Assembly: GCF_003991155.1 (NCBI RefSeq)
Contig: NZ_CP031293.1
Length of the DNA: 64,000 bases
Strand: one strand, 5' to 3'
Source: Escherichia coli
GTDB taxonomy: Bacteria; Pseudomonadota; Gammaproteobacteria; Enterobacterales; Enterobacteriaceae
Made by a program: the position numbers. How positions within the stretch are numbered: position 1 is the first letter of the stretch; each line of letters opens with the position of its first letter. This document shows positions 33,101 to 36,100 of the stretch, in pieces.

Positions 33101-36100
33101 ACGGAATTCTGGTGCAAAGCGCCTTGCTGGGTCAGGATGATGTGCTGGCGCAATTAACCGGGGCGTATCAGCGTTTTCATCTGCCGACTACGCTGGCGGA
33201 GCTGGAAGTGGATATCAATAATCAGGCGGAGATCGACAAAATGATTGCCCACACCTTGCGTCCGGTGGAATCCATTCATTACCTGCCGGTCACGCTGACA
33301 CCGGATACGTTGCGTGCAGCGTTCGAAAAAGTGGAATCGTTTAAAGCCTGACGTACAAATTTAGCAGCAGCGCGCGCCGCCTTTTCCACCGTAGCGAGCG
33401 TCCTGCCGCTCACGGAAAAACTCCTCGTAGGTCATCGGCGTTTGATCGGGATGGTTAACCCGCATATGTTCGACATAGTTGTCGTAATCAGGCATACCAA
33501 TCATCAGTTTCGCCGCCTGACCTAAATATTTTCCGGCTTTTGCCAGTGAATCAAACATCTAAACCTCCGGTAAACAGGTTGCTGAGAGGGTGCTATCAAC
33601 GCGCTCGGTCAGTCCCCTCGCCCCACAGGAGAGAGGGTTAGGGTGAGGGGGAACCCTCGGCACCATGCCAACTTTCGCCAACATTCGCCAACATTCCCCC
33701 CTCACTCTGACTTTAGTGCGCGCCTTTTGCCTGCGCCACGATCTCCTCGACATTTTCCGGCATTGGCTCATACGGCGTTTCTTTCGCCGTTGGCTTCGGC
33801 TCTTTCAATGCCGCAAGTGCCGTCTTAATCGAGAACAGTGCCAGAACCACCACGACCACCATAAAGAAGATGGTTAACCCGGCATCCAGACGGTTGTTGA
33901 ACACCAGTTGCGCCAGCTGTGACTCAGTATACTGCGACGGAATATTGCCGCTGTCGATCATTGCCTGGAACTTATTAGCAATGGCCAGGAAGCCGACTTT
34001 CGCATCCGGGCTAAACGCTTTCTGCCAGCCAGCGGTCAGGGTACAAATCAGCAGCCAGGCCGTTGGTACCAGCGCCACCCAGGCGTAACGTTGACGTTTC
34101 ATTTTGAACAGCACCACAGCACAGAGCATCAGCGCCATCCCTGCCAGCATCTGGTTGGCAATACCAAACAGCGGCCACAAGGTGTTAATACCGCCCAGCG
34201 GATCGACCACGCCCTGATGCAGGAAGTAGCCCCACGCCAGCACGCACAGCGCCGTTGCCAGCAGGTTAGCAGGCAGTGAATCGGTCCGTTTCAGGCCCGG
34301 AGACACCACGCCCAGCAGATCCTGCAACATAAAGCGCGCAGCACGCGTACCTGCATCCACCGCCGTCAGAATAAACAGTGCTTCAAACAGAATGGCGAAG
34401 TGATACCAGAACGCCACATCCATCATGCCGCCCAGAGCACCGTGCAGAATGTAGGCCATCCCCACCGCCAGGGTCGGCGCACCGCCCGCACGGGAAATGA
34501 TCGACTGTTCACCCACTTCGCTGGCAATCTGGTTTAGCGTATCCGGGGTAATCGCAAAGCCCCAGCTACTCACCACCTGCGCGGCAGAAGCAACCACATC
34601 CGCCGTCCCTGCCGGAGCCAGCACTGCCATCGGGCTGTTCATAGCGAAGTACACACCTGGATCGATGATACAGGCGGAAACCAGCGCCATAATCGCCACG
34701 AAGGATTCCATTAACATCCCGCCGTAGCCGATAAAACACGCCTGCCCTTCGTTCGCCAGCATCTTCGGTGTAGTGCCGGAAGAGATCAGCGCATGGAAGC
34801 CAGACACCGCGCCACAGGCGATAGTAATAAACAGGAACGGGAACAGGTTACCGGTCCATACCGGGCCAGTGCCATCGACAAATTTAGTTAGCGCAGGCAT
34901 GGTCAGCGTCGGGCGCATAATCAGAATGCCTACCGCCAGACCGACGATAGTCCCGATTTTCAGGAAGGTTGAGAGGTAGTCACGCGGGGCCAGCAGCAAC
35001 CACACCGGCAGCACCGCCGCCACAAAACCGTAACCCACCAGCATCCAGGTCAGCTGCACACCCGTAAAATCAAAGTACGGTGCCCAGGTCGGGCTTTCTG
35101 CCACCCAGCCGCCAGAGATAATGGCGAAAATCAGGAATACCAGGCCAATCACCGACACTTCGCCAATACGCCCCGGACGCAAATAGCGCAGGTAGATCCC
35201 CATAAACAGCGCCAGCGGAATGGTGAACGCAACGGTATACGTTCCCCACGGGCTATGAGTCAGGGCTTTCACCACGATCATCGCCAGCACGGCAAGGATA
35301 ATGACCATGATCATAAAGCAGGCCACCAGCGCTATCACCCCGGCGGTTGGCCCCATCTCTTCTTTGACCAGCTCACCCAGCGAGCGACCGTCACGGCGCG
35401 TAGAAACAAACAGCACCATGAAATCCTGCACCGCACCGGCGAGAACCACCCCGGCGAGCAGCCAGATCATCCCTGGCAGGTAACCCATTTGCGCCGCCAG
35501 TACCGGCCCAACCAACGGACCTGCTCCGGCAATGGCCGCAAAATGGTGACCGAACAGCACTTTTTTGTCCGTCGGCACATAGTCCAGCCCGTCGTTATGG
35601 CGCACCGCTGGCGTCATACGCGTCGGGTCAACCGCCAGCACATTTTTGGCGATATACAGCCCATAAAAACGGTAAGCGATCAGATAGATACAGACCGACG
35701 CCACCACAATCCACAGCGCGTTGATCTGTTCCCCACGATTTAAAGCAATGTATCCCAGAGCAAATGCTCCCATTACAGAGAGCACTGTCCAGACGAGGTA
35801 TTTCCCTGATTTGTTCATAGTTGTTATCCGTGTGCGTGTCCATAGAGATGTTACATTTTGTTTCTATAACATCTTTGTACAATTTAACAACACAGCAACC
35901 ATGTAAATCAGAATTAAAACCAATATTTAACTTAACAACGTTAACTCGATCACTCCGTTAACCGAATTTTCCTGCAATCTCATTTTATTCTGTCGGGTTC
36001 ATCCCAAAACCGCTGTGCCCAGCCGACAGGTGCAGCAACGCCGCCCCTGTTCATCGAAAACGACGATTTCCCAGCTCTGATTTTGTCGTCCAAGATGCAG

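What the first reader, a model, noticed from the sequence alone, without database searches (positions are those of the whole stretch)
33559..33712. Repeat-rich intergenic element between cstA and ybdD with a perfect tandem decamer
The 154-bp cstA-ybdD spacer contains several copies of a CCCCTCNCYC / GGGTGAGGG-type motif arranged partly as inverted repeats, and a perfect tandem duplication TCGCCAACAT-TCGCCAACAT (33675-33694). It looks like a small dispersed palindromic repeat that has undergone slipped-strand duplication. Its position between two co-transcribed, functionally linked genes suggests it could modulate ybdD expression relative to cstA.
Basis: seen in the sequence. Interest (0 to 1): 0.25.

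Follow-up and report, generated by a model that had tools for sequence, protein, structure and literature searches.

The report
Degenerate Box C repeat with 10-bp VNTR
The cstA–ybdD spacer of this E. coli strain holds a slightly mutated copy of the long-known "Box C" dispersed repeat next to a 10-bp tandem repeat whose copy number (0–3) differs between strains; both are real but ordinary, and no regulatory role is shown.

Summary
The 154-bp spacer (33559-33712) lies between cstA and ybdD, both on the minus strand. TCGCCAACAT is perfectly duplicated at 33675-33694, within a 3-unit array at 33667-33696. Four CCCTCNCYC-type blocks sit in the spacer, against about 2 expected in the whole 64 kb.

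The core (about 33603-33653) is a copy of Box C, also published as PIT, TMECO and HPG1. It has a median of 14 places per E. coli genome. The orthologous copy is already catalogued in K-12 (HPGQ 19) and in O157 Sakai (TMECO 26).

The window allele is degenerate. One base (33630) breaks both the strict triplex pattern and the G-quadruplex pattern that most other alleles meet.

The decamer is a true VNTR: 3 copies in 50 genomes, 2 in about 3850, 1 in about 330, and 0 in 1189 (B2-type spacer without Box C), out of 5419. It lies in the loop of a hairpin that starts 7 nt after the cstA stop codon. Box C supplies the 3' arm of that hairpin.

The window allele also lacks the REP element present in most strains. 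No terminator, promoter or Rfam match was found. A regulatory role is untested, and published work found no promoter or terminator activity for these elements. Low interest; already known.

The parts
33713..33715 (-). cstA stop codon (TAA). The cstA CDS spans 33713-35818.
33695..33711 (-). 5' arm of the post-cstA hairpin (GUCAG.GUGAGGGGGGA on the transcript). It is invariant in all E. coli alleles examined and conserved in E. albertii, E. whittamii and Escherichia sp. MOD1-EC7003.
33667..33696 (-). 10-bp VNTR with three units (GAATGTTGGC, GAATGTTGGC, GAAAGTTGGC on the transcribed strand), in the apical part of the hairpin. Other strains carry 0, 1 or 2 units.
33603..33653 (-). Box C (PIT/TMECO/HPG1) element. 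The C-rich strand is the transcribed sense strand. Its first block (33643-33653, UCCCCCUCAC) forms the 3' arm of the post-cstA hairpin.
33615..33649 (+). TMECO-equivalent on the G-rich strand: CCCTCGCCC-CACAG-GAGAGAGGG-TTA-GGGTGAGGG. Base 33630 is A where other alleles have G, which breaks the strict triplex pattern and the four-G-tract pattern.
33615..33637 (-). Box C internal stem-loop in the predicted RNA fold (CCCUC.UCCU GUG GGGC.GAGGG).
33564..33568 (-). ybdD Shine-Dalgarno sequence (GGAGG), 5 nt before the ATG at 33556-33558. It is conserved in all alleles.
33586..33590 (.). Approximate position where most E. coli strains (including K-12) carry a ~38-nt REP element that is absent from the window allele.

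Best explanation
What it is. The spacer is a composite of known kinds of repeat DNA, not a dedicated regulatory device.

(1) A hairpin begins 7 nt after the cstA stop codon and is conserved across the genus Escherichia.

(2) In most E. coli, a Box C element (also called PIT, TMECO or HPG1) occupies and replaces the hairpin's 3' arm. Its CCCCCTCACCC block is nearly identical to the old arm, so pairing with the 5' arm is kept.

(3) A 10-bp unit in the hairpin loop has been duplicated, and here triplicated, by replication slippage. This gives a lineage-stable VNTR with 0 to 3 units.

(4) The window's lineage lacks the REP element that most strains carry further downstream. It also has a point mutation that degrades the Box C triplex and G4 motif.

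What is shown and what is inferred. Shown: the identity of the parts, their polymorphism and the predicted folds. Inferred: that the variation is produced by the local instability reported around Box C/TMECO sites. Also inferred: that it is largely neutral, and that the only likely RNA-level effect is a GC-rich stem-loop without a U-tract. Such a stem-loop may protect the cstA message from 3' exonucleases while letting RNA polymerase read on to ybdD, which has its own strong Shine-Dalgarno sequence.
For: Identity. The same locus is catalogued as HPGQ 19 in K-12 (PMC5100583) and as a TMECO at 713,521-713,556 in O157 Sakai, inside its cstA-ybdD spacer. Box C, PIT and TMECO are stated to be the same element in PMC4666352. 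Box C is listed as a known E. coli family (56 bp, 32 copies) in PMC2267715.

VNTR. Alignments show exact 10-bp steps. The counts are 50 genomes with 3 units, about 3853 with 2, about 330 with 1 and 1189 with none; no allele has 4.

Hairpin. The window spacer folds at -65 kcal/mol, z = -2.4. The same outer stem is predicted in ten alleles and species, including alleles without Box C.

Outgroups. E. albertii, E. whittamii, MOD1-EC7003 and SCPM-O-B-8794 have the hairpin plus REP but no Box C.

Local variability. It matches the TMECO-associated variability reported by Holder 2015.

Tolerance of variation. YbdD is the identical protein WP_000460431.1 in every E. coli allele type annotated under that accession.
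Against: The hairpin's 5' arm is invariant and pairing is retained after Box C took over the 3' arm, which hints at selection on the structure. GC-rich hairpins or TMECO pairs occupy the same spacer in many Enterobacteriaceae genera, which could mean the structure has a function. The z-scores of the folds are only moderate (-2.4 for the window, -1.6 for K-12). No expression data were available, so neutrality is an inference.
Confidence: 0.75

Rival explanations
1. The repeat-rich spacer is an intercistronic RNA regulator. Its stem-loops attenuate read-through or stabilise the upstream message, and the decamer copy number tunes ybdD expression relative to cstA.
For: Stable stem-loops are predicted directly after the cstA stop codon in all alleles. 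Extra decamers lengthen the apical stem, giving -40.5 kcal/mol for the hairpin with 3 units against about -32 with 1 or 2. The B2-type allele has a terminator-like hairpin before ybdD that the window lacks, so alleles could differ in read-through. CstA and YbdD work together (PMC5847655). A GC-rich hairpin sits in this spacer across Enterobacteriaceae.
Against: The window spacer has no U-tract terminator and no promoter-like site. PIT/Box C elements showed no promoter or terminator activity and no effect on RNA polymerase in earlier experiments (cited in PMC4666352). Co-transcription is not documented, and RegulonDB lists both genes as single-gene units. VNTR alleles look lineage-fixed, and 47 of the 50 three-unit genomes are identical over 91 nt. 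Twenty-two percent of genomes have no decamer or Box C at all.
Confidence: 0.15
2. This is a DNA-level switch. The G-rich strand forms an intrastrand triplex or G-quadruplex that regulates transcription of the neighbouring genes (the HPG1 'G-quadruplex-hairpin-duplex switch' of Kaplan 2016).
For: The orthologous K-12 copy is HPGQ 19. Oligonucleotides of this family form triplex or G4 structures in vitro.
Against: In the window allele, base 33630 destroys the fourth G-tract and the strict triplex pattern. In vivo footprinting did not support stable triplex formation. The G-rich strand is the template strand for cstA, so the mRNA carries the C-rich strand. Presence/absence polymorphism argues against an essential switch.
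Confidence: 0.05
3. The spacer encodes a small protein or an sRNA.
For: A mechanical 70-aa ORF (33559-33771, minus strand) and two plus-strand ORFs overlap the spacer.
Against: Alleles differ by 10-nt, 20-nt and larger indels, which shift any reading frame. The Rfam scan gave no match near a family's gathering score, only weak microRNA and eukaryotic-element hits. No promoter-like site was found.
Confidence: 0.02

Closest known systems
Box C, also published as PIT (potential intrastrand triplex) elements, TMECO (Holder et al. 2015, PMC4666352) and the HPG1 G-quadruplex motif (Kaplan et al. 2016, PMC5100583)
   Same: It shares about 51 nt of homology with other copies, including the fabI-ycjD copy. 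It is intergenic and multi-copy, with a median of 14 places per genome. It has type A architecture with a TTA second loop. The same locus is catalogued in K-12 and in Sakai. The neighbourhood is hypervariable, as reported for TMECO loci.
   Different: The window copy carries one substitution (33630) that fails the strict TMECO and G4 search patterns. It is fused to an older hairpin, and it is flanked by a 10-bp VNTR not seen at the five other copies examined.
REP/BIME elements
   Same: They are also short GC-rich palindromic intergenic repeats. One occupies this same spacer in K-12 and in most E. coli, and in the sister Escherichia species examined.
   Different: The window allele has no REP. 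Box C is unrelated in sequence to the REP consensus (GCCGGATAAGGCGT...).
Bacterial VNTR / simple tandem repeats changed by slipped-strand mispairing
   Same: There are head-to-tail 10-bp units, and alleles differ by whole units from 0 to 3.
   Different: The copy number is very low and the alleles appear lineage-stable. This is unlike the long, rapidly switching contingency-locus repeats, and it is not in a promoter or a coding region.
Intrinsic terminators and 3' stabiliser stem-loops between genes
   Same: A GC-rich stem-loop lies directly after a stop codon. Related genera have a plain hairpin here, sometimes with a T-run.
   Different: No U-tract follows either stem in the window.

Membership tests
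Box C / PIT / TMECO | Sequence homology to other genomic copies, including the fabI (envM)-adjacent copy | tested here: met
   blastn-short gives 90-92% identity over 39-51 nt to the fabI-ycjD, wcaK-wzxC, zntA-tusA, gntP-fimH and lptG-yjgR copies.
Box C / PIT / TMECO | Dispersed, multi-copy and intergenic in E. coli | tested here: met
   There are 66,380 places in 5,396 genomes, median 14 per genome. Every copy inspected lies between genes; one BLAST match at zntA-tusA runs a few bases into the tusA 3' end.
Box C / PIT / TMECO | Strict pattern CCCTCNCCC N3-6 GGGNGAGGG N3 GGGNGAGGG (Holder 2015) | tested here: not met
   The window has GAGAGAGGG in block 2 (A at 33630), so the regex fails. Nine of twelve other alleles of the same locus pass. 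The window copy is therefore a point-mutated ('TMECO mutated') orthologue, not a canonical motif.
Box C / PIT / TMECO | Forms an intrastrand triplex in vitro | not testable with these tools
   This needs CD or NMR on the oligonucleotide. It is published for canonical copies only.
HPG1 putative G-quadruplex | Four G3+ tracts with loops of at most 7 nt (GGGAGAGGGTTAGGGTGAGGG) | tested here: not met
   There is no G4 regex match on either strand of the window spacer. K-12 and nine other alleles match.
REP/BIME | REP consensus palindrome (GCCGGATAAGGCGTTCACGCCGCATCCGGC) | tested here: not met
   The segment is present in K-12, 2011C-4251, 20Ec-P-124, O55:H7 and APEC E12049, and absent from the window.
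VNTR generated by slippage | Tandem identical units, with alleles differing by integral numbers of units | tested here: met
   TRF finds 3.0 copies. Alleles with 0, 1, 2 and 3 units are seen in alignments, and population counts are.
Intrinsic (Rho-independent) terminator | GC-rich stem followed by a U/T-run | tested here: not met
   There are 0 terminator-like sites in 33300-33900. The B2-type allele has one.
MITE-type mobile element | Terminal inverted repeats with a target-site duplication at a clean filled/empty site | tested here: inconclusive
   Comparing filled alleles with empty ones (KKa019, MOD1-EC7003) shows replacement of the old 3' arm (TTACTCTC) rather than a clean insertion flanked by a duplication. 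Only a few alleles were compared.

The most novel reading that the evidence does not exclude
The GC-rich stem-loop between cstA and ybdD may be a selected feature across Enterobacteriaceae that is repeatedly rebuilt from Box C/TMECO-type elements. E. coli has a single element fused to an older hairpin, and Enterobacter, Lelliottia, Leclercia, Pluralibacter and Phytobacter have inverted pairs. It could act as an intercistronic stabiliser or attenuator. The decamer VNTR and the presence or absence of Box C and REP could then set different CstA:YbdD stoichiometries in different lineages.
Probability: 0.1. Interest if true: 0.4.

Novelty: already known. Interest (0 to 1): 0.12.

Why it matters
It matters little in practice. 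It shows that a hand-spotted "odd" spacer is a member of a repeat family described since the 1990s, renamed three times (Box C, PIT, TMECO, HPG1) and still without a proven function.

The locus is a compact natural example of the local hypervariability reported around these elements. One 112-182-bp spacer exists in at least six structural forms across 5,419 genomes: Box C present or absent, REP present or absent, and 0 to 3 decamers. That allelic series could serve as a ready-made set for testing whether Box C stem-loops affect operon polarity, and as a minor typing marker.

Tried and rejected
1. The Rfam scan at a permissive threshold gave only spurious sub-threshold microRNA-type hits, so no known RNA family applies.

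2. The promoter and terminator scan of the window spacer found nothing.

3. I first concluded that the decamer is entirely outside the dispersed repeat. This was revised after the zntA-tusA copy proved to share a 28-nt 5' extension with one decamer-like unit (3 of 2000 shuffles reached the score). The other four copies do not share it.

4. I looked for further Box C copies in the window. There are none. The CCCTCACCC at 43584 is inside a coding region.

5. The literature searches I ran turned up no evidence of cstA-ybdD co-transcription or of 3' ends in the spacer.

6. I tried to decide whether the B2-type allele is ancestral or a deletion derivative. It mixes the old 3' arm with a tail (CCGAGCGTGTTGATAGC) otherwise found after Box C, so the direction remains unresolved.

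7. A coding reading of the overlapping ORFs is rejected because of the frame-shifting indels between alleles.

Full report
**Observation.**
The window is E. coli. cstA (33713-35818) and ybdD (33361-33558) are both on the minus strand, and the 154-bp spacer is exactly 33559-33712. The spacer is 100% identical to that of strain 2016C-3878, where RefSeq annotates the same two genes.

The perfect duplication TCGCCAACAT/TCGCCAACAT is at 33675-33694 as stated. Tandem Repeats Finder extends it to three 10-bp units at 33667-33696, with one mismatch in the third unit.

Four of the eight CCCTCNCYC matches in the 64-kb window fall inside the spacer, while shuffles give about 2 for the whole window. Several of them form inverted repeats.

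**Anatomy on the transcribed (minus) strand.**
The order of features is as follows:
- TAA, the cstA stop codon.
- AGTCAGAGTGAGGGGGG, the 5' arm of the hairpin.
- GAATGTTGGC, GAATGTTGGC, GAAAGTTGGC, the three decamer units.
- ATGGTGCCGAGGG.
- TTCCCCCTCACCC-TAA-CCCTCTCTCC-TGT-GGGGCGAGGGG-ACTGACCGAGCGC, the Box C element.
- About 40 nt of spacer, then GGAGG (the Shine-Dalgarno sequence) and the ATG of ybdD.

As RNA, the spacer is predicted to fold at -65 kcal/mol (z = -2.4) into two stem-loops. In the first, GUGAGGGGGGA pairs with UCCCCCUCAC, the first block of Box C, and the decamers lie in the apical part. The second is the internal Box C stem-loop.

No U-tract terminator, no sigma-70-like promoter and no meaningful Rfam match were found.

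**Identity of the dispersed part.**
A blastn search of the spacer against 5,426 complete E. coli genomes gives 66,380 places, median 14 per genome. At loci other than cstA-ybdD, the matches I inspected cover mainly query positions ~41-95, which is window ~33599-33653.

The copies I inspected are wcaK-wzxC, lptG-yjgR, gntP-fimH, zntA-tusA and fabI-ycjD. They are intergenic and share TTCCCCCTCACCCTAACCCTCTCCCC-N3-GGGGCGAGGGGACYGAYCG.

This is the Box C family. PMC2267715 lists Box C as a known E. coli family of 56 bp and 32 copies. Holder et al. 2015 (PMC4666352) state that Box C was rediscovered as PIT elements, and they rename it TMECO. Their consensus is CCCTCNCCC N3-6 GGGNGAGGG N3 GGGNGAGGG. 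They show triplex formation in vitro but not stably in vivo, and they report raised sequence variability around TMECO loci. They also cite earlier experiments that found no promoter or terminator activity.

Kaplan et al. 2016 (PMC5100583) found the same sequence again as the putative G-quadruplex motif HPG1 (GGGAGAGGGTTAGGGTGAGGG). They list the K-12 cstA-ybdD copy explicitly as HPGQ 19.

Holder's supplementary table lists a TMECO at 713,521-713,556 of O157 Sakai. That position lies between cstA (which ends at 713,470) and ybdD (which starts at 713,652). So this element, at this locus, is already catalogued.

**The window copy is degenerate.**
Base 33630 is A where other alleles have G (CCCTCTCTCC against CCCTCTCCCC on the transcribed strand). 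Because of this the window spacer fails both the strict TMECO regex and a standard four-G-tract regex. Nine of twelve other alleles of the same locus pass both. K-12 fails the TMECO pattern through a different substitution but passes the G4 pattern.

**Population variation.**
Alignments of spacers from 15 strains show variation in exact 10-bp steps:
- Three units in the window and in 2016C-3878.
- Two units in K-12, O55:H7, 2011C-4251, Z226-1 and others.
- One unit in ECA64, N96, 20Ec-P-124, APEC E12049 and KKa019.
- No unit in phylogroup-B2-type strains such as SE15 and ST131.

A 91-nt probe across the array classifies 5,419 genomes as follows:
- 50 genomes have three units, and 47 of them are identical to the window over the 91-nt probe.
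- About 3,853 have two units.
- About 330 have one unit.
- No four-unit allele ranked where it would have appeared.

The B2-type spacer has 112 bp, no decamer array and no Box C. It is present once in exactly 1,189 genomes.

Independently of the decamer, most strains carry a ~38-nt REP element between Box C and ybdD. The window and roughly 300 other genomes lack it. KKa019 has REP but no Box C.

YbdD is the identical protein (WP_000460431.1) in every E. coli allele type annotated under that accession. One-unit alleles occur on REP-plus, REP-minus and Box C-less backgrounds. This implies either recurrent unit change or recombination. The three-unit allele looks like a single lineage.

**Origin.**
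A scan of GTDB species representatives with YbdD returned 80 loci. E. albertii, E. whittamii, Escherichia sp. MOD1-EC7003 and the divergent 'E. coli' SCPM-O-B-8794 all have a hairpin plus REP and no Box C. The hairpin consists of the stop codon, then GTCAGAGTGAGGGGG, a loop containing GTTGGCATAGTGCC, and TTCCCCTCACTCTCAGC.

All ten alleles and species fold into the same outer stem. E. albertii shows a change on both sides that keeps the pair (A-U to U·G).

In E. coli the old 3' arm (TTCCCCTYACTCTC) is replaced by the near-identical first block of Box C (TTCCCCCTCACCC), so the hairpin is retained. No target-site duplication is visible. Arrival by recombination or gene conversion at a pre-existing similar sequence is therefore as plausible as transposition; this is inference.

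The zntA-tusA Box C copy shares a further 28 nt upstream with the cstA locus, TGA(G/T)GGGGGAA..TTGGC....TGCCG, including one decamer-like unit (3 of 2000 shuffles reached the score). The hairpin loop may therefore belong to an extended Box C variant. Tandem amplification of the unit is seen only at cstA-ybdD.

**Mechanism.**
Shown:
- The parts are a Box C copy, an older hairpin and a VNTR.
- All are polymorphic among strains.
- The RNA is predicted to form two GC-rich stem-loops without a U-tract.

Inferred:
- The decamer array arose by slipped-strand mispairing in the loop of a long palindrome.
- The clutter of indels reflects the local instability reported for TMECO loci.
- The variation is largely neutral.
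- At most, the stem-loops protect the cstA message from 3' exonucleases while polymerase reads through to ybdD, which has its own GGAGG.

- The 5' arm is invariant.
- Extra decamers lengthen the apical stem.
- The B2-type allele alone has a terminator-like hairpin before ybdD.
- A GC-rich hairpin occupies this spacer throughout Enterobacteriaceae.

It nevertheless has no direct support, and published negative results on PIT elements argue against it. The G4/triplex-switch reading is weakest here, because the window allele has lost both motifs.

**Verdict.**
The feature is real and correctly described. Its identity as a dispersed palindromic repeat with a slippage duplication is correct. The family and this very locus are already in the literature, and the regulatory interpretation is unproven. 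The 10-bp VNTR and the allelic series are small additions.

- Interest: 0.12.
- Novelty: already known.

Noticed in passing
L030, L033, L076, L079, L080, L086 (pairs); L050, L053, L059, L072, L085 (single); all at about 1064-1183, just upstream of ybdD at 1201: In 11 of 80 species representatives, strict TMECO/Box C motifs sit in the same cstA-ybdD spacer. The genera are Enterobacter, Lelliottia, Leclercia, Pluralibacter, Phytobacter, Cedecea and Pseudocitrobacter. They are often an inverted pair of a type B-like and a type A-like element. Other genera (Citrobacter, Salmonella arizonae, Klebsiella oxytoca, Atlantibacter) have a plain GC-rich hairpin there, some with a T-run. It is undecided whether this reflects orthology, a preferred landing site or selection.
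   Followed up: partly
window 40840-41015 (entC-fepB spacer): This spacer is 176 bp and contains no Box C. K-12 has 374 bp here with an inverted TMECO pair (Holder Table 1, nos. 7 and 8, at 624,579-624,676). The matching strain 2016C-3878 has only 6 Box C-type places, against a median of 14, so this lineage is Box C-poor.
   Followed up: partly
L013:442-462 (minus strand), E. coli SE15 and the 1,189 B2-type genomes: The B2-type spacer carries a terminator-like hairpin, GCCCTCTTAATTCAGGAGGGC followed by ATTTGTATTA, about 20 nt upstream of the ybdD start. It is absent from the window and from K-12-type alleles. Alleles may therefore differ in cstA-ybdD read-through.
   Followed up: no
L012:1045-1083 (zntA-tusA spacer) compared with window 33654-33705: The Box C copy after tusA shares a 28-nt 5' extension with the cstA locus: a G-run arm, one decamer-like unit (GAAGATTGGC) and a TGCCG loop. 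In both loci the extension starts at the stop codon of the upstream gene. This suggests a longer Box C subfamily.
   Followed up: partly
L024 and L050: A 465-nt contig labelled Streptomyces sp. DH24 encodes a 98%-identical YbdD. A MAG labelled Bacillota carries an Enterobacteriaceae-type cstA-ybdD locus with a REP-like element and a TMECO. Both are probably contamination or mis-binning in the public assemblies.
   Followed up: no
L019:301-482 (NC_000913.3 632,000-632,181): The RefSeq K-12 record annotates nothing in the cstA-ybdD spacer. Neither the REP element nor Box C is annotated, although both are evident in the sequence.
   Followed up: no
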